From Thermoflexus sp. (GTDB taxonomy: Bacteria; Chloroflexota; Anaerolineae; B4-G1; SLSP01): a stretch of 64,000 nt of DNA. The stretch's first letter is position 1. Each line of letters opens with the position of its first letter. A program made the position numbers and the translations under genes. The notes under the pieces are model-generated. The model was not told where the DNA came from. It saw nothing but the letters and a program-made list of their open reading frames with translations, and searched no databases. Below are positions 18,505 to 25,011 of this stretch, piece by piece. The stretch is taken from assembly GCA_020722365.1 (NCBI GenBank), contig DYKY01000001.1, forward strand, positions 15,357 through 79,356. Direction: 5' to 3'.

Positions 18505-18930
18505 TTACGAATGGAGTCTGGCCAGAAACTCGCCCACCTGGACGACCTCGACGGCCAATACATTCAGCCTGGCGACCAAGTCGGCGTCATCGTAGAGGTC
18601 ACGGTCAGATGTCACCAGGAAACAGGGAGCGGCGGCTACAGCCGTAGCAATCACGATGTCGTCTTTGGGATCGCGGCAGGAAGGGAAATCGACGGCGGGA
18701 TCGATAAACAGCGCCAAAGAACGCAACAACGCCACAAACGCTCGCCCCTTACCGGGAGATAGAAAACGCTGCACCTTTGGTCGTTCCATCACACCCGCAA
18801 ATTCATCCACTACCGCAGACGAAACAACCAGAGTGAACTCCCTTTGACGCCATGCCCGATACAATGGCAACTGTTGGCCGGAGGCCGCCATTCTGAGAAG
18901 CAAGTTGGTATCCACAACTGCGTGCATCAA
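18505..18930 (-). CDS. PIN-domain toxin (VapC-like).
   Basis: MMHAVVDTNLLL.. PIN N-terminus and conserved acidic residues. Confidence 0.7.
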   Translation of the reverse strand: MMHAVVDTNLLLRMAASGQQLPLYRAWRQREFTLVVSSAVVDEFAGVMERPKVQRFLSPGKGRAFVALLRSLALFIDPAVDFPSCRDPKDDIVIATAVAAAPCFLVTSDRDLYDDADLVARLNVLAVEVVQVGEFLARLHS

Positions 18931-19235
18931 TCGATCTCTTGGCGTGCCTCGTGAATTAATGCCACTAACTCGTCATCGCTTATATCGGCGACATCCGTAT
19001 CAGCGAACTCGCGCGCAGCAATGGCTTCGTATTCCTCAAACGGTCGTCGCCATTCCTCGGGAGAGAGGGCGGCCAGACGGCGCTCTTGCTCTTCAAGATC
19101 AGGGACAGTCTGGGCCTGCGTGGCAATCACCAACACCTCACTGCCTGGAGGCAGAAGACGCGCTTCAGCAGACCGGCGCAAGCGCACTAGCCCGTTTTTC
19201 TCAACCACACCTCGATAAGCAGCCAAAACGCCCAT
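18927..19235 (-). CDS. Putative cognate antitoxin (AbrB/SpoVT-like?).
   Basis: Small ORF overlapping the PIN start by 4 nt, with an acidic C-terminus. Family assignment is tentative. Confidence 0.45.
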   Translation of the reverse strand: MGVLAAYRGVVEKNGLVRLRRSAEARLLPPGSEVLVIATQAQTVPDLEEQERRLAALSPEEWRRPFEEYEAIAAREFADTDVADISDDELVALIHEARQEID

Positions 19236-19454
19236 ACGACACCTCCCACTTCCTTTTGCCAACCTCGCGGTCGATCCGTCTAAAATCATTATAACACCGG
19301 CGGAAGAAACCACCAAACTGCGGAGATCGTCAACGACGGCCCGTTAACGACGGACATTATCGTCCCAAGCCATCTCGCCTATTGGACGAGGAGGCGACCC
19401 GTGCTAGAATACGGGCAAACGATGTAGAATCGAGGGGGGCTTTCGGAGCAGACA

Positions 19455-20201: not shown

Positions 20202-21299
20202 TCAACGGTCGCCATGGCCGTATAGGCGCAGCCACAGTTCCTCATCTTCGTTCGAGAGGCCGCTTGGCTCCTCATCTTTCGTCGGAATGAGTTGCCGCTT
20301 GCGCTTGACCAGCCTGGTCTGCGAGGGCTTGGATGGGTCCGCCGCAGGTTGACGCTTGCCCGGCTTTTCCGGCGTTGCCGCGGGCGAAGAAACAGAGGCT
20401 TCAGGTTCGCCGCCGAAAATCTCCAGCCAGGTTTCAACTTCCTCAGCAGAAAGCGCCCCGTGCTTTTTCACGACCGGCGGTTTGGGCTGGCGCGGTTTTG
20501 CCTGAGGTTTGGATTCTGGCGGTGGAACACTCTCCGGCGCATCGTGAAAGACTTCCAGCCAGGATTCCACCTCTTCGGGGGAGACCTCATCAGGCTTTCC
20601 TCCATACCCGGCAGGCTTTTCCCGTTTGGGCGGCGGAGGTAGAGATTCCCCCATTTGCTCGGCGATGGAACGCGTAGTGCGCGATGGCGGCATCTGTGGT
20701 GTGGCCTGTTCCAACGCGCGCTGTTTGGCTCGCTGCGCTTGCTTCTTGGAAACGGCATGCACGGCGGGCGGCGCCGGCTCCGGTACGGGTGCGACCTCCG
20801 GTGCAACAGATGCCGCTGATACAGCGTTATCCTCTGCCGCAGCGTGAGCCTCAAAGACCTCCAACCACGCTTCCACTTCCACCGCAGGCACGCCTTCCGG
20901 CTTTTCCTTCTCCACTTCCAACGTTTGGTTCAGCCGCTCCACGAACTCCTGCGCCGACAGCGTCTTTGCGCCGGTCATCCGCGCGTTGTCCAGCACCTCG
21001 CGATCGGACGAAACCACCGTCCAGTTGGGTGCATCGGGCAGCGCGCTCAACCGCTCCTTGATGATGCGGTCCGCCGTGCTGTAATGCCGCGCCGCAAAGA
21101 CGACGCGCACTTCCGGCGAAGAAAGCACCCGTGATGGCCCGCCCGGAATGCCGCCGTCGAAAACGACAATGGCCTTGCGCCGCTCGCGCCCGCTCCAGGC
21201 GCGCAGCTTCACGACCAGTTTGGCCTCATCGTCTGGGTCCTCCAGATCGATATCCGGCAGAGCGGCGATCACGTTATGTCCGTCGATCAAAAAGGGCAT
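20202..21299 (-). CDS. NYN/YacP(Rae1)-like PIN-fold nuclease domain protein with a long disordered C-terminus carrying four acidic W-L-E-V/I-F repeats.
   Basis: N-terminus MPFLIDGHNVIAA...VVFDG...VVFAARHYSTADRII is NYN/YacP-like. The C-terminus contains VEVEAWLEVFEA, EEVESWLEVFHD, EEVETWLEIFGG and DEELWLRLYGHG. Confidence 0.6.
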   Translation of the reverse strand: MPFLIDGHNVIAALPDIDLEDPDDEAKLVVKLRAWSGRERRKAIVVFDGGIPGGPSRVLSSPEVRVVFAARHYSTADRIIKERLSALPDAPNWTVVSSDREVLDNARMTGAKTLSAQEFVERLNQTLEVEKEKPEGVPAVEVEAWLEVFEAHAAAEDNAVSAASVAPEVAPVPEPAPPAVHAVSKKQAQRAKQRALEQATPQMPPSRTTRSIAEQMGESLPPPPKREKPAGYGGKPDEVSPEEVESWLEVFHDAPESVPPPESKPQAKPRQPKPPVVKKHGALSAEEVETWLEIFGGEPEASVSSPAATPEKPGKRQPAADPSKPSQTRLVKRKRQLIPTKDEEPSGLSNEDEELWLRLYGHGDR

Positions 21300-21311: not shown

Positions 21312-22289
21312 TTACTGCACCGCAAATTGCACAAATCGTTGCATCCTGTGCTCGTCGCTCACACCGGCAAAGGCTTTCCGCAAAGCGGCATACGCCTCGC
21401 GGGTGATGTAGAGCGGTTTTGCCAGTTCCGCCTCTATAGCAGGTTCGGTAGGTTTCTCCCGGAGAACGAGGGCTGCATTGGCGCGTTCGATAATCGCCGC
21501 GCTGACCGTATCCGTGTGCGTATCACCCAGGAGTTCGTTGAGGATAAGTGCCGTCGTTGATGTGACCCACACGCGAATCAGGTTATTCTCGACTTCCTCG
21601 CCCTGTACACAGAAGTAATAGAGGTTAGGATCGTTCGGCGGCGGCACGTCGAAATAAGGCTGAATCTTCGCGCCCGCGCTGGTCGTAATGGAGTAGCGTT
21701 TGATGCCGGTTGCGTTCTCGTACACCCACAGGTTCTTGCTCGGTTTCCGGTTGCCGCTTCTGCGTTCGTGCCATTCCGCCCAGTAATCGTCTGGGTTGGG
21801 AGGCAGCATGTCCGTCTCGAAGTACAGGAATTCCACCAAGTCGCCTTGCCACAGCAGCCAGCCGGTGCGCATATCCGGTTCTGCATCAGGTGTGTTTTGG
21901 GCGACCCTTTGCCGCCGCTGCTCAATCAGGTCGGCATACTGTTGGAGAATCTCCCGCGCTATCACTGTCGGCTCCCCTTCGGTTGTAGGAATCCGGATAG
22001 AGCGCGTCGCCGCAGGGTGCATAAGTTGTGTTCCGCAGTATTCCTTTATGGATTTCCCTGACCTCACGCAGAGCATTTTGTGCTCCACGCCCAGCGCGCC
22101 GTGCATCACGTCTATGTGGAGATTGCTCCATCCTTCGTTGGGGATGCCCTTGGCGGCGCAGTAGACGTAGGCCCAATCGCCTTCCTCGAACTTCCGCCCC
22201 ATCATGACAGCAACTCTGGACGCGAGAAACCGGTGCGCCGCCGTTAGCTCGGCTGCCGAAAAGGCTGGACGTGTGTCTGGGCGTTTCAT
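21312..22289 (-). CDS. Type II restriction endonuclease (PD-(D/E)xK fold, candidate).
   Basis: Translationally coupled (ATGA overlap) downstream of a DNA methyltransferase. Candidate catalytic motif HIDVMHGALGVEHKM (D..E.K). Confidence 0.5.
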   Translation of the reverse strand: MKRPDTRPAFSAAELTAAHRFLASRVAVMMGRKFEEGDWAYVYCAAKGIPNEGWSNLHIDVMHGALGVEHKMLCVRSGKSIKEYCGTQLMHPAATRSIRIPTTEGEPTVIAREILQQYADLIEQRRQRVAQNTPDAEPDMRTGWLLWQGDLVEFLYFETDMLPPNPDDYWAEWHERRSGNRKPSKNLWVYENATGIKRYSITTSAGAKIQPYFDVPPPNDPNLYYFCVQGEEVENNLIRVWVTSTTALILNELLGDTHTDTVSAAIIERANAALVLREKPTEPAIEAELAKPLYITREAYAALRKAFAGVSDEHRMQRFVQFAVQ

Positions 22290-24247
22290 ATCATCCTCCC
22301 TTGACCACGTTGATTGGCGATTTCTGACCGCACAACATCTACGAGTATCTTACGGAACTCTTCATAACTGACGTCAATCATCTCTTCGGCCTCCAGCCGT
22401 GCTTTGAGCCACAGCGCATACAGCTTGCGGCTATCCACTTCATCTTCCCGTTCGACGTGCAGATAATGAACGACGAAGTCTTCAGGCGTTTGGGTGAGAG
22501 CGTTCTTCACAAACGCGCGGATCGCGGCTTTGGTCGCACCGTTGTTACGCAGGGCGGGCGCAGCAGAAGTTGTGTGGGCTTCTTTCTGACAATGGAGTAA
22601 CAAATCGTAACCAACAGCATTTGGCGAAACGAACTGTTTAAACGTCCCGTGCTTTTTGTCGAGCGTTTGGGTGGTCTCGATGCTGAAGCCGCTGGCGGCC
22701 AATGCTTGTTGGAGCGCCGCCCAGACTTTGGCCGACGAGTTGTGGAACATCACGGTGAGCCAGCGCCCCGGTTTGAGCACACGCTGCATCTCGCCGAACG
22801 CTTCCGTCATAAGGGAGCGATACTCGTCCAGCGATTTCCCCTGCACGCGGTTGATGATCGCCTCTTTCTCAACGTTTGTGAAGACGCCCAACCAGGATTC
22901 CCACAGGTAGTTCATCTCCGAATAGTTGATGTTGCCGCCAAAGGGCGGATCGGTGAAAATGTAGTCAATCGTACCGTCCGGTATGGCGCTCAAGTCCGTC
23001 GCGCTCTGCGTGGAGATACAGAACGGGCCAGCGGGCAACGGATTCCAGGTCGCAAAGTATTTCTGGATCGTCTTGGCCTTCCGTTCGAAGACCTGGAAGA
23101 CGTTCTGCTCGTTGAAAATCATCGGCACGTTGTAATTGGCGGTGTTGCTGCTGCCGCCCCAAAAGCGGAATTCCGACAGTTGCGTGACCCGCTGGTAAAG
23201 CGAGGTGACGGTGTACATCAGTTTCACCCCCTCCTCTGCGTCGGGCCAACGGCGGGCGATGTCCCACAAGCGCGCCATCACCCGCAGTTGCCGCGTGGTA
23301 TACAAGGCGTCAATCGAGGTCAGCCCGTGCGAAACCGGCTGCCGCGTGTTGAGTCCCGGTAGAAAGGCGTTGGTAGGATACCATAATTCTCCGGGGACGC
23401 CGTCCACCTCCAACGTCTTGAGCAGCGCCAGGTCGTGTGCATCGGGCGTGGCGGTGGACTCGCGCCGGTCGGAATCGCAACAATGATAGCCCACTTGCAC
23501 CGGATAGGGTTGCGTGCGGTGCAGATGGCTTTTTTTTAAGAGTTTGCCGCAATGAGGGCACGCGAATTCCGTCTTAATTTTGCTTTTGCGCACGTCGGCG
23601 TGTTCGTCGCGGGCCACGTCCCACAGCACGAATTCCTGGTGGCAGTGCTTGCAGAGCAAGCCATAACTCCACACCATATAGTTCATCGGTACCAGTTTAC
23701 CGCACGTGCGACAGTGTGTGCCGTATACCGTTAACGCCTCATCTGCCGTGGCCGCGAGAACGGCTTCGAACGCTGCTCTGTAGCGCGCCGCATCCATAGG
23801 CGTGACGAAGTTGAACGCAATAAAGGTCGCCGCCGGAGAGAGGTCTATGAGAATGGGGATACGTCCGGTTTGCAGCGCCGCCACGCCGGTCATCCCCGAG
23901 CCGCAAAACGGATCAAGCACCAGCCCTCCCGGCGCGGCGTAATGCTCGATCAAGCGCGCAATGGCCTGCGGTGGGACTTTAGTGTGATACGTGTGCGCGT
24001 CGTAGACGTATGTGTTCTTCCCCGCGACGAGTTCCTCGGGCAGCGGCCTGAGCGTGTACGTCGTCGGCGCGAGTGCGTGCTCACGAACAAACTCCGCAAG
24101 CGCGTCGTTCGCGCCAGGTGAATAGGCCCGACTCTCAAAGTCGCGCAGGGTGCGCGGCGCAACACGCAGGTCCAGCGCACGAGCATGCTCAATTTCGAAA
24201 AGGCGTGGCTGTGTAATCACATGCAAGGTCTCTTTCTTAAGTAGCAA
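22286..24247 (-). CDS. DNA methyltransferase (alpha-class N6-adenine/N4-cytosine type, probably m6A) with a Cys-rich zinc-finger target-recognition region.
   Basis: Motif I LDPFCGSGMTG near the N-terminus, motif IV FTDPPFGGN near the C-terminus, with CxxC...CxxC pairs in between. Confidence 0.7.
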   Translation of the reverse strand: MLLKKETLHVITQPRLFEIEHARALDLRVAPRTLRDFESRAYSPGANDALAEFVREHALAPTTYTLRPLPEELVAGKNTYVYDAHTYHTKVPPQAIARLIEHYAAPGGLVLDPFCGSGMTGVAALQTGRIPILIDLSPAATFIAFNFVTPMDAARYRAAFEAVLAATADEALTVYGTHCRTCGKLVPMNYMVWSYGLLCKHCHQEFVLWDVARDEHADVRKSKIKTEFACPHCGKLLKKSHLHRTQPYPVQVGYHCCDSDRRESTATPDAHDLALLKTLEVDGVPGELWYPTNAFLPGLNTRQPVSHGLTSIDALYTTRQLRVMARLWDIARRWPDAEEGVKLMYTVTSLYQRVTQLSEFRFWGGSSNTANYNVPMIFNEQNVFQVFERKAKTIQKYFATWNPLPAGPFCISTQSATDLSAIPDGTIDYIFTDPPFGGNINYSEMNYLWESWLGVFTNVEKEAIINRVQGKSLDEYRSLMTEAFGEMQRVLKPGRWLTVMFHNSSAKVWAALQQALAASGFSIETTQTLDKKHGTFKQFVSPNAVGYDLLLHCQKEAHTTSAAPALRNNGATKAAIRAFVKNALTQTPEDFVVHYLHVEREDEVDSRKLYALWLKARLEAEEMIDVSYEEFRKILVDVVRSEIANQRGQGRMI

Positions 24248-24534
24248 ACTTTACTCTCTGCATCTACGAACTACACGGCGTGACAACTCTTAACAATTTT
24301 CTTTAACGCACTCAACTACCACCAACACCTCCCCAACAGCGTCTCTGCGTGCAGGTCCAGATTGTTGGCGCAACGCCAGCGACAGGAAGGCGTCTTTTTC
24401 TGCAACCGACCCGCCCCCTCAACGTAATCCTATTATAATCAGGGATACCATTTCCCACAAACCGATTTGCCCCTTACGCAGCCCTGACTATAATGCTCTT
24501 AAGTTCACTCGTTAAATCTGTTGACAAAGGAGGC

Positions 24535-25011
24535 ATGATGTCCGACGATAAAATGCAATACCCGGAGCGCGCCGGTGACGTGGGCACGTTGATGGGATGG
24601 TTGAAAGACTTCTTCGGCCATTTCCGCCTGGCCTGGGAATTGTTATGGGATGAGCGCGTCCCATTTGTCACCAAGATCATCCCCATTCTCACGCTCCTCT
24701 ACGTCATCTCACCCGTGGACCTTGTCTCGGGTTTGGCATTTCCAGGAATCGGTGCATTGGATGATCTGACGATTTTCCTGATCGGGATGCGGCTCTTTGT
24801 CGATGTGTGCCCGCCGGCCCTGGTAACCGAACACCAGGCAAAGGACCAACTCGAAATGAGCGCCGCACCGCAGGACGAAGAGCAACCGGCTTCATCGACG
24901 TGGAGGGTTCCACCTACAGCCCAGATCATCGATTTGGAAGCCGAAGAAGTCTCCGGCACAGCCGCAACCGCCGAAGAACCCCCCAAACCGCCCCTCCCCC
25001 ACGTGTGGTAG
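24535..25011 (+). CDS. DUF1232/YkvA-family membrane protein.
   Basis: IIPILTLLYVISPVDLVSGLAFPGIGALDDLTIFLIGMRLF matches the family pattern (LYxISPiDlIPDfIPgiGyLDD). RBS AAAGGAGG. Confidence 0.6.
   Translation: MMSDDKMQYPERAGDVGTLMGWLKDFFGHFRLAWELLWDERVPFVTKIIPILTLLYVISPVDLVSGLAFPGIGALDDLTIFLIGMRLFVDVCPPALVTEHQAKDQLEMSAAPQDEEQPASSTWRVPPTAQIIDLEAEEVSGTAATAEEPPKPPLPHVW

What the first reader, a model, noticed from the sequence alone, without database searches (positions are those of the whole stretch)
20202..21299. NYN/YacP-like nuclease with four tandem acidic 'EE-x-E-x-WLEVF' peptide motifs in a disordered tail
After the PIN-fold NYN domain comes a ~220-aa Pro/Lys-rich low-complexity region. 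It carries VEVEAWLEVFEA, EEVESWLEVFHD, EEVETWLEIFGG and DEELWLRLYGHG at roughly regular spacing. Repeated short amphipathic motifs of this kind usually act as multivalent docking peptides (ribosome, clamp or chaperone binding). YacP/Rae1 homologs are ribosome-associated endonucleases. The gene sits directly next to an R-M pair.
Basis: seen in the sequence. Interest (0 to 1): 0.5.

Follow-up and report, generated by a model that had tools for sequence, protein, structure and literature searches.

The report
Rae1-like nuclease with repeated docking helices
This gene encodes a relative of the ribosome-associated RNA-cutting enzyme Rae1 whose short C-terminal helix has been multiplied to four conserved copies on a flexible tail, probably as a multi-point anchor; the restriction-modification genes next to it are an unrelated, strain-specific insertion.

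Summary
ORF 20202-21299 (-) encodes 365 aa: a YacP/Rae1-type NYN nuclease domain (aa 1-133, catalytic Asp conserved), then a 233-aa mostly disordered tail with four copies of 'KP-x-x-h-S-x-x-E-V-x-x-W-L-x-h-F-G'. All four tail Trp lie in the motif. No shuffle of 200,000 gave even three matches.

The motifs are conserved islands (0.65-0.71 column identity) in variable linkers (0.28-0.43), across orthologs down to 43% identity.

New here: related Anaerolineae have 155-170-aa YacP proteins with exactly one such motif at the extreme C-terminus. Others have 2, 3, 4 or 5 copies, and candidate division KSB3 has a two-copy form. So the tail is an amplification of the clade's single C-terminal module.

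A motif profile searched against 1.84 billion proteins found only 70 hits. Every full-length hit is a YacP NYN protein, so this is not a shared docking peptide.

The R-M linkage is refuted: 0 of 83 other loci carry it.

The function is inferred, not shown: an N-capped amphipathic acidic helix that tethers the nuclease to the ribosome or another partner, with copy number giving avidity. Homology to the Bacillus Rae1 C-terminus (IFEKWRRG) was not demonstrated.

Verdict: new variant of a known kind, moderate interest.

The parts
20202..21299 (-). Complete gene, 365 aa: YacP/Rae1-family NYN endoribonuclease with a four-motif C-terminal tail
   Evidence: ORF. There are 218 full-length homologs, with 99-100% coverage down to 43% identity.
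20901..21299 (-). NYN (PIN-like) nuclease domain, aa 1-133. Catalytic Asp D6 and D77 correspond to B. subtilis D7/D81; D48, S97-S98-D99 and N9 are also invariant.
   Evidence: Pfam PF05991, 58.3 bits. phmmer to PDB 5mq8 aligns D6/D77 with D7/D81. Invariant columns. The D7N D81N catalytic mutant is described in PMC10351889. AF2 pLDDT is about 90. Foldseek best hit is 5mq8, TMq 0.64.
20850..20903 (-). Motif 1 (aa 133-150, KPEGVPAVEVEAWLEVFE). It is positionally equivalent to the single C-terminal motif of the 155-170-aa relatives.
   Evidence: Predicted helix 139-150/160.
20646..20687 (-). Conserved island 'PSRTTRSIAEQMGE' (aa 205-218). E214, Q215 and G217 are nearly invariant. It may be a degenerate motif copy (IAEQMG versus WLEVFG) or a separate short motif.
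   Evidence: column identity 0.61 against 0.28-0.38 in the flanking linkers. Not detected by the repeat HMM.
20514..20600 (-). Motif 2 (aa 234-262, GKPDEVSPEEVESWLEVFHDAPESVPPPE), net charge -8
   Evidence: (33.3 bits, the best-scoring unit). Predicted helix 241-252.
20412..20471 (-). Motif 3 (aa 277-296, VKKHGALSAEEVETWLEIFG)
   Evidence: Predicted helix 285-295.
20286..20327 (-). Conserved basic island (aa 325-338, PSQTRLVKRKRQLI), net charge +5, predicted helix 326-337
20214..20261 (-). Motif 4 (aa 347-362, GLSNEDEELWLRLYGH), the C-terminal variant 'LS.ED.ELW.RL[FY]G'. It has the highest model confidence of the four.
   Evidence: Predicted helix 350-360, block pLDDT 87.

Best explanation
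The gene encodes a catalytically competent member of the YacP/Rae1 family of NYN endoribonucleases. Its C-terminal partner-docking helix has been amplified from one copy to four.

Each unit has three parts:
- a short extended 'KP' segment;
- a Ser N-cap of the 'S-x-x-E' capping-box type;
- a roughly 12-residue amphipathic acidic helix with V, W, L and F on one face (positions i, i+3, i+4, i+7), closed by a Gly C-cap.

The units are separated by variable, Pro-rich, mostly basic disordered linkers.

The most likely mechanism is by analogy with B. subtilis Rae1, which cleaves mRNA about 12 nt upstream of the A site of stalled or collided ribosomes. On this reading, the helices are the elements that tether the nuclease to its platform, most probably the ribosome or a ribosome-bound protein. 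Several copies on a roughly 230-aa flexible tail would then raise avidity, or allow one molecule to contact more than one binding site, for example neighbouring ribosomes in a queue.

Shown here:
- family membership, intact active site and repeat architecture;
- conservation of the motifs;
- a copy-number series from 1 to 5;
- exclusivity of the motif to YacP proteins;
- irrelevance of the R-M neighbours.

Inferred only: RNase activity, ribosome association, and that the helices bind a partner in trans.

The confidence of 0.5 is for the whole statement. Taken separately, I put the identity and architecture part at about 0.9 and the trans-docking/avidity mechanism at about 0.4-0.5.
For: Family and active site:
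- Pfam PF05991.
- PDB 5mq8/5mq9 (Rae1) are the only sequence hits and the top structural hits.
- D6/D77, equivalent to catalytic D7/D81, are invariant.

Repeat reality and selection:
- 0 of 200,000 shuffles reached 3 matches.
- Motif islands have 0.65-0.71 column identity against 0.28-0.43 in linkers.
- Each position keeps its own flavour across the clade, for example M2 '...FHD.PES..PPP' and M4 'LS.ED.ELW.RLFG'.

Origin by amplification:
- Among 80 GTDB species loci there are 155-170-aa proteins ending in one motif, and proteins with 2, 3, 4 and 5 copies.
- The 4-copy clade is monophyletic, while other multi-copy forms nest among single-copy ones (NJ tree).
- A 2-copy form occurs in KSB3/Moduliflexus.

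Motif specificity:
- A local HMM over 8,165 six-frame ORFs hit only the NYN genes.
- A profile search over 1.84e9 proteins gave 70 hits. All full-length ones carry the NYN domain.

Helical propensity: AF2 places helices exactly at the motifs in an otherwise low-confidence tail.

Biology of the family: PMC12407103 and PMC13622287. The latter states that how Rae1 recognises collided ribosomes is unknown.
Against: - No binding partner is identified, and nothing here tests RNase activity or ribosome association.
- The Anaerolineae proteins are distant from B. subtilis Rae1: 22-27% identity, and hhalign aligns only residues 3-84. Transfer of function is therefore an inference.
- The motif profile does not align with the Bacillaceae C-terminus 'KP..KI.LS.EV..IFEKWRRG' beyond 'EKP'. 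The shared EV..hh..h pattern is only suggestive.
- An acidic helix would not bind rRNA directly, so it needs a basic protein surface that has not been identified.
- Motif 1 alone is not modelled as docked to anything (pLDDT 62-67). That result is neutral.
- No translation-related synteny was seen. The conserved neighbour is a divergent DUF1232 gene.
Confidence: 0.5

Rival explanations
1. Cis-acting latch or autoinhibition. The acidic amphipathic helices fold back onto the basic RNA-binding face of the protein's own NYN domain, or onto that of a second molecule, and keep the nuclease off until a signal displaces them. Extra copies make the off-state tighter or drive oligomerisation.
For: - Motif 4 reaches block pLDDT 87 in the full-length model, unusually high for a free helix in a disordered tail.
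- In B. subtilis Rae1 the C-terminal segment is ordered in the wild-type crystal (174 residues, 5mq8). Only 159 residues are ordered in the W164L mutant (5mq9), so a C-terminal aromatic residue can anchor that segment.
- The motifs are strongly acidic, with net charges from -2 to -8.
Against: - Motif 1, the copy next to the domain, is not confidently docked when modelled alone with the domain (pLDDT 62-67).
- One domain can hold only one helix at a time, so repeated independent expansions to 3-5 copies are hard to explain by a simple latch.
- Model coordinates could not be inspected, so docking of motif 4 is unverified.
Confidence: 0.2
2. Self-association or condensate scaffold. Alternating acidic helices and basic Pro-rich linkers make a blocky polyampholyte. 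It could multimerise or phase-separate, possibly with RNA, and so concentrate the nuclease.
For: - The charge pattern alternates: motifs -2 to -8, linkers 0 to +5.
- The tail is disordered.
- The motif is found on no other protein family, which is compatible with homotypic interaction.
Against: - Sequence-specific invariance of W, L, F and the capping residues goes beyond what charge patterning needs.
- Single-copy 155-aa forms keep the same motif with no linkers.
Confidence: 0.1
3. Accessory of the adjacent restriction-modification or defence module, for example an abortive-infection RNase co-operating with the MTase and the 325-aa gene.
For: In this strain the three genes are co-directional and tightly packed. 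There is a 12-bp gap between the 325-aa ORF and the NYN start. They probably share the ancestral NYN promoter.
Against: - The MTase and the 325-aa gene are absent from 83 of 83 other loci, including orthologs of 82-90% identity that have DUF1232 directly upstream.
- The NYN protein matches no PADLOC model.
- The NYN gene is a conserved chromosomal gene with stable DUF1232, HAD and FtsK neighbours.
Confidence: 0.02
4. Neutral low-complexity expansion. The tail is replication-slippage debris with no function.
For: The linkers are poorly conserved and vary in length. No DNA-level tandem repeat was looked for, and none is evident from the protein spacing.
Against: - The four motifs and two further islands are maintained across at least 48 species-level genomes down to about 43% identity, each with position-specific variants.
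- Several lineages expanded independently.
Confidence: 0.03

Closest known systems
Bacillus subtilis Rae1/YacP (PDB 5mq8; ribosome-associated endoribonuclease 1)
   Same: - Same Pfam family (PF05991) and the same fold; it is the top Foldseek hit.
- The catalytic Asp pair is conserved.
- Both have a short conserved segment after the domain that begins with 'EKP' and ends in an amphipathic helix with aromatic residues near the C-terminus.
   Different: - Rae1 is 170 aa with one C-terminal element, 'LS.EV..IFEKWRRG', basic at its end. This protein is 365 aa with four acidic 'S..EV..WL..FG' helices on a disordered tail.
- Identity is only 22-27%.
- Profile-profile alignment covers residues 3-84 only, and the two C-terminal motifs are not demonstrably homologous.
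- Gene context differs.
Single-motif YacP proteins of other Anaerolineae (Phototrophicaceae, Aggregatilineales and others; loci L055-L086)
   Same: Same NYN subfamily (MPYLIDGHNLIA...; 45-58% identity over the domain) and the same motif, '[ST]..E[VI]..WL..FG'.
   Different: They are 155-170 aa. The motif occurs once, at the extreme C-terminus, with no Pro-rich linkers. The window protein is the four-copy derivative.
Two-copy YacP proteins of candidate division KSB3 / Ca. Moduliflexus (P0165, P0345, P0346, P0356)
   Same: NYN_YacP domain followed by 'DRVN.xLS..EVQEWL..FG' twice. The BLASTP alignment to the window protein runs through the motifs.
   Different: - Different phylum.
- N-terminus of the 'VDGYNYIG' type, which is more Bacillus-like.
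- Two copies, with a basic linker between them.
- Different neighbours: topA, xerC, hslVU.
SmrB (E. coli) and Cue2 (yeast): collision-sensing nucleases with separate ribosome-tethering elements
   Same: The architecture is analogous: a small endonuclease domain plus peptide or domain modules that hold it on ribosomes. SmrB and Cue2 are discussed as functional analogues of Rae1 in PMC13622287. That SmrB uses an N-terminal hook and Cue2 several ubiquitin-binding CUE domains is from my own knowledge.
   Different: The nuclease fold is unrelated (SMR versus NYN), and so are the tethering modules. For the present protein the tethering role is only a hypothesis.

Membership tests
YacP-like NYN domain family (Pfam PF05991) / Rae1 | Significant match to the family profile, above the curated threshold | tested here: met
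   58.3 bits against a gathering score of 24.6, E 1.2e-15, aa 4-133 matching profile positions 2-137 of 166. No NCBIfam model matched.
YacP-like NYN domain family (Pfam PF05991) / Rae1 | NYN/PIN-like fold resembling the Rae1 crystal structure | tested here: met
   The AF2 domain has pLDDT about 90. The Foldseek top hits are 5mq8_A and 5mq9 (E 6e-7, TMq 0.64, prob 1.00); the next hits have E above 4e-3.
YacP-like NYN domain family (Pfam PF05991) / Rae1 | Catalytic acidic residues (B. subtilis D7 and D81; the D7N D81N mutant is inactive) | tested here: met
   D6 and D77 align with D7 and D81. They are invariant in 31 orthologs, together with D48 and D99. The mutant is described in PMC10351889.
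YacP-like NYN domain family (Pfam PF05991) / Rae1 | Bacillaceae-type C-terminal element 'KP..KI.LS.EV..IFEKWRRG' (P147, I151, E162, W164, R165, R166, G167 invariant in 20 Bacillaceae) | tested here: inconclusive
   phmmer extends the pairwise alignment through motif 1. However, hhalign of the motif profile against the B. subtilis C-terminus aligns only 'EKP', and the full-length profile-profile alignment stops at residue 84. The shared pattern EV..hh..h is my reading.
YacP-like NYN domain family (Pfam PF05991) / Rae1 | Translation-dependent mRNA cleavage about 12 nt upstream of the A site of stalled or collided ribosomes; association with ribosomes | not testable with these tools
   Defined experimentally for B. 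subtilis only (PMC12407103, PMC13622287).
Restriction-modification / anti-phage defence accessory | Conserved genomic linkage to the R-M genes | tested here: not met
   tblastn of the MTase and the 325-aa protein against 89 loci gave hits only in L001-L003, which are the same strain as the window. The orthologous loci L004-L006 lack the cassette.
Restriction-modification / anti-phage defence accessory | Match to a known defence-system protein model | tested here: not met
   PADLOC gave 0 families for the NYN protein. Only the MTase matched (PglX|PglXI, MTase_II).
Array of short linear motifs in a disordered region (multivalent docking tail) | Short conserved islands embedded in poorly conserved, disordered, length-variable linkers | tested here: met
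   Column identity is 0.65-0.71 in the motifs against 0.28-0.43 in the linkers. pLDDT is below 60 between the motifs. Copy number varies from 1 to 5 among relatives.
Array of short linear motifs in a disordered region (multivalent docking tail) | An identified binding partner or pocket for the motif | not testable with these tools
   No PDB chain carries a comparable peptide (the only hit is a chance match to adiponectin). The motif occurs on no other protein family, so no shared-client logic points to a partner.

The most novel reading that the evidence does not exclude
The 'S-x-x-E-V-x-x-W-L-x-x-F-G' helix is the element through which this branch of Rae1-type nucleases recognises the ribosome. 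Its copy number (1 to 5, expanded independently in several lineages and in two phyla) would then tune selectivity for queues of collided ribosomes. One molecule would bind the same site on two or more neighbouring ribosomes, so that avidity itself acts as the collision sensor.
Probability: 0.15. Interest if true: 0.7.

Novelty: new variant of a known kind. Interest (0 to 1): 0.42.

Why it matters
How Rae1 finds stalled or collided ribosomes is an open question. A 2026 preprint (PMC13622287) states that there is no structure of ribosome-bound Rae1 and that its mode of recognition is unknown.

This family offers a natural experiment. The same nuclease domain carries one, two, three, four or five copies of a sharply defined 12-residue helix, and that helix occurs on no other protein. 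This singles the helix out as the candidate adaptor. It also gives ready-made reagents: peptides, copy-number variants and W/F point mutants for pull-downs, polysome co-sedimentation and cryo-EM.

If instead the helix proves to be a cis-latch, that would reveal a regulatory principle for NYN RNases.

The practical value is modest. The organisms are uncultured Anaerolineae from sludge and sediment metagenomes, and every functional statement is still inference.

Tried and rejected
1. Pfam scans of the four isolated motif peptides at E up to 10 found nothing. The precomputed PF27535.1 hit on homolog P0104 could not be reproduced with the local Pfam copy.

2. I tried three ways to link the motif to the Bacillus Rae1 C-terminus. 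The motif profile against the B. subtilis peptide aligned only 'EKP'. The single-copy Anaerolineae profile against a Bacillaceae profile stopped at residue 84. The local repeat HMM did not hit B. subtilis YacP. I therefore do not claim homology, only positional and pattern similarity.

3. I looked for the motif on other proteins. There were none among 8,165 six-frame ORFs of the window plus 86 loci, none in the window itself, and none among the 70 hits from 1.84e9 representative proteins. The exceptions are short fragments of the same family and one eukaryote-like false positive, P0159.

4. The PDB profile search for a crystallised analogue of the peptide returned only a chance match to adiponectin.

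5. I modelled aa 1-158 to see whether motif 1 docks on the domain. Its confidence was low (62-67), so the result is uninformative.

6. Synteny gave no functional clues. The four-copy clade keeps a divergent DUF1232 gene and often HAD and FtsK. A single-copy locus has NERD, DnaJ, DsbA and RsgA neighbours. The KSB3 locus has topA, xerC and hslVU. There is no consistent translation-related operon.

7. The papers most likely to describe the Rae1 C-terminus (PMC5412759, PMC6152456) are not held. Literature searches found no description of a repeated tail.

8. The window contains no tmRNA gene.

Full report
OBSERVATION

The ORF at 20202-21299 on the minus strand exists as described and encodes 365 aa. 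Pfam places a YacP-like NYN domain at aa 4-133 (PF05991, 58.3 bits, cut-off 24.6). The remaining 233 aa contain four matches to W[LM]xx[FY], at W145, W247, W291 and W356. These are the only four tryptophans in the tail. None of 200,000 shuffles of the tail gave three or more matches. No other reading frame of the 64-kb window carries the motif.

CONSERVATION

A search of 5.8 billion proteins returned 218 homologs. Those named are Anaerolineae/Chloroflexota metagenome-assembled genomes. Coverage is 99-100% down to 43% identity, so the tail is part of the conserved protein.

In an alignment of 31 homologs, the W, L and F of every motif are invariant. So are K133, K235-P236, K279 and L283 upstream of the motifs.

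Aligning 221 units from 81 proteins gives the full unit: (E)K-P-x-x-[VIL]-S-x-x-E-V-x-x-W-L-x-[VI]-F-G. I read this as follows:
- a Ser N-cap with an S-x-x-E capping box;
- a 12-residue amphipathic helix with V, W, L and F on one face and Glu on the other;
- a Gly C-cap.

AlphaFold2 puts helices at 139-160, 241-252, 285-295 and 350-360 in an otherwise low-confidence tail.

Motif segments have 0.65-0.71 mean column identity, close to the 0.78 of the domain. Linkers have 0.28-0.43. The motifs are acidic (net -2 to -8), and the linkers are neutral to basic and Pro-rich. Two further islands are conserved: 'RSIAEQMG' (aa 205-218) and a basic helix 'RLVKRKRQLI' (aa 325-338).

WHERE THE REPEATS CAME FROM

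Scanning one genome per GTDB species gave 532 relatives, of which 80 loci were kept. All are Chloroflexota. Translating them shows a copy-number series:
- About 30 proteins of 155-170 aa (Phototrophicaceae, Aggregatilineales, some Anaerolineaceae) consist of the NYN domain plus exactly one motif at the extreme C-terminus, for example '...VSKDEVDEWLDIFGGD-COOH'.
- Other proteins have 2, 3, 4 or 5 copies and are 291-392 aa long.

In a rough neighbour-joining tree of the domain, the four-copy proteins, including this one, form one clade. The other multi-copy forms are nested among single-copy forms, which suggests several independent expansions. That tree has no support values.

Within the four-copy clade each position has its own signature, for example M2 '...FHD.PES..PPP' and M4 'LS.ED.ELW.RL[FY]G'. 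The amplification is therefore old, and each copy is maintained.

IS THE MOTIF USED BY OTHER PROTEINS?

A 30-column profile of 83 units was scored against 1.84 billion representative proteins. Only 70 reached E of 0.001 or better. Every full-length hit contains the NYN domain. The hits without it are fragments of 46-199 aa that carry the same linker signatures, plus one unrelated eukaryote-like repeat.

A local HMM over 8,165 six-frame ORFs of all fetched DNA hit only the NYN genes.

The hits include other YacP subfamilies with two or three copies. One of these belongs to candidate division KSB3 / Candidatus Moduliflexus, a different phylum. Yet other YacP proteins have an unrelated basic C-terminus (P0372 and P0373).

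The C-terminal module of YacP proteins is therefore variable. This particular module is specific to a Chloroflexota/KSB3 branch.

RELATION TO Rae1

The only PDB sequence hits are B. subtilis YacP/Rae1, 5mq8 and 5mq9. They are also the top structural matches. D6 and D77 align with D7 and D81, the residues mutated in the catalytic-dead Rae1 (PMC10351889), and they are invariant.

The pairwise phmmer alignment runs on through 'EKPEGVPAVEVEAWLEVFE', matched to 'EKPAGKIALSEE-VLKTFEK'. In 20 Bacillaceae the C-terminus 'KP..KI.LS.EV..IFEKWRRG' is among the most conserved parts of the protein. The existence of a W164L crystal form with fewer ordered residues (159 against 174) hints that this aromatic residue matters.

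The profile methods, however, do not confirm homology of the two C-terminal elements. I therefore treat the resemblance (EKP, then S..EV, then hydrophobic positions i, i+3/4 and i+7, near the C-terminus) as a lead only.

Overall identity to Rae1 is 22-27%.

NEIGHBOURHOOD

The MTase (22286-24247) and the 325-aa ORF (21312-22289) lie immediately upstream on the same strand. They are found only in contigs of the same strain (L001-L003).

Orthologs of 82%, 73% and 52% identity have a DUF1232 gene directly and divergently upstream instead. None of the 83 other loci contains either R-M gene.

The DUF1232-MTase intergenic region of the window still carries the sequence that precedes the NYN start codon in the relatives. 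The cassette was therefore inserted between the old promoter/RBS region and the NYN gene. The NYN protein matches no PADLOC defence model.

A PIN_3 toxin pair (18505-19316) is a second strain-specific insertion.

MECHANISM

B. subtilis Rae1 cleaves mRNA about 12 nt upstream of the A site of stalled ribosomes (PMC12407103). It also feeds collided ribosomes into trans-translation. How it recognises them is unknown, and no ribosome-bound structure exists (PMC13622287).

The best-supported reading of the present protein is a Rae1-type nuclease whose adaptor helix is present four times on a flexible tail. That arrangement would give avidity, or the ability to contact several equivalent sites.

Three findings support an adaptor role:
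- strict conservation of a small amphipathic surface;
- persistence of the helix as the only appendage in the minimal 155-aa proteins;
- repeated independent amplification.

The partner is unknown.

A cis-latch or autoinhibition model is the main rival. In its favour, motif 4 has pLDDT 87 in the full-length model. Against it, motif 1 is not confidently docked when modelled with the domain alone, and a latch does not need up to five copies. Self-association through alternating charge blocks is a weaker rival. Neutral expansion and an R-M accessory role are contradicted by the data.

VERDICT

The R-M association is incidental.

The protein is a new architectural variant of a known enzyme family. 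I found no description of it in the literature I could search. It is of moderate interest, because it points to a specific and easily testable candidate for the unknown recognition element of Rae1-like nucleases.

Noticed in passing
window 21312-24247 (-): Strain-specific R-M-like cassette. It comprises a 653-aa split N6/N4 methyltransferase (PADLOC PglX|PglXI 1.7e-136, MTase_II) and a 325-aa partner, overlapping by 4 bp. The partner has no Pfam, NCBIfam, PDB or PADLOC match and may be an uncharacterised restriction endonuclease. The cassette is inserted between the ancestral promoter/RBS region and the NYN start codon.
   Followed up: partly
window 18505-19316 (-): A PIN_3 toxin (141 aa) with an upstream 102-129-aa ORF overlapping by 4 bp; this looks like a toxin-antitoxin pair. 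It lies between the HAD and FtsK genes here, but is absent from the orthologous loci L004 and L005, where HAD abuts FtsK. This is a second strain-specific insertion within 5 kb.
   Followed up: partly
window 20646-20687 and 20286-20327 (-): The tail has two further conserved islands besides the four motifs: 'RTTRSIAEQMG' (E214, Q215, G217 nearly invariant) and a basic predicted helix 'RLVKRKRQLI'. 'IAEQMG' has the same h-h-E-x-h-G pattern as 'WLEVFG', so it may be a decayed fifth copy.
   Followed up: partly
window 24493-25011 (+); L004-L006 and many GTDB loci: A DUF1232 (YkvA-like) gene is the conserved, divergently transcribed neighbour of the four-copy NYN gene across the clade, down to about 37% identity. 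Its function is unknown.
   Followed up: partly
L087/L088 (P0165); P0345, P0346, P0356: Candidate division KSB3 / Ca. Moduliflexus carries YacP proteins with two copies of the same motif ('DRVN.xLS..EVQEWL..FG'). Both phyla are filamentous sludge bacteria. Whether this reflects horizontal transfer or common ancestry was not examined.
   Followed up: partly
P0372, P0373: Another YacP subfamily (about 173 aa) ends in a basic 'GW.PTT.KKGPSRRL.K...' tail instead of the acidic helix. The C-terminal module of YacP nucleases is interchangeable between lineages.
   Followed up: no
L039 3956-5046: In one MAG the four-copy gene is split by a frameshift: the NYN domain plus motif 1 are in one frame, and motifs 2-4 are in another. 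It is either a pseudogene or an assembly error.
   Followed up: no
P0092 (607 aa), P0104: P0092 is the same protein with a 260-aa Cys-rich N-terminal extension, probably a miscalled start or a fusion. P0104 carries a precomputed Pfam hit, PF27535.1, that the local Pfam copy does not reproduce.
   Followed up: no
PDB 5mq9 versus 5mq8: The deposited B. subtilis Rae1 W164L mutant structure has 159 ordered residues against 174 in the wild type. The Trp of the Bacillus C-terminal element therefore seems to be needed to order that segment. The paper describing it was not available.
   Followed up: no
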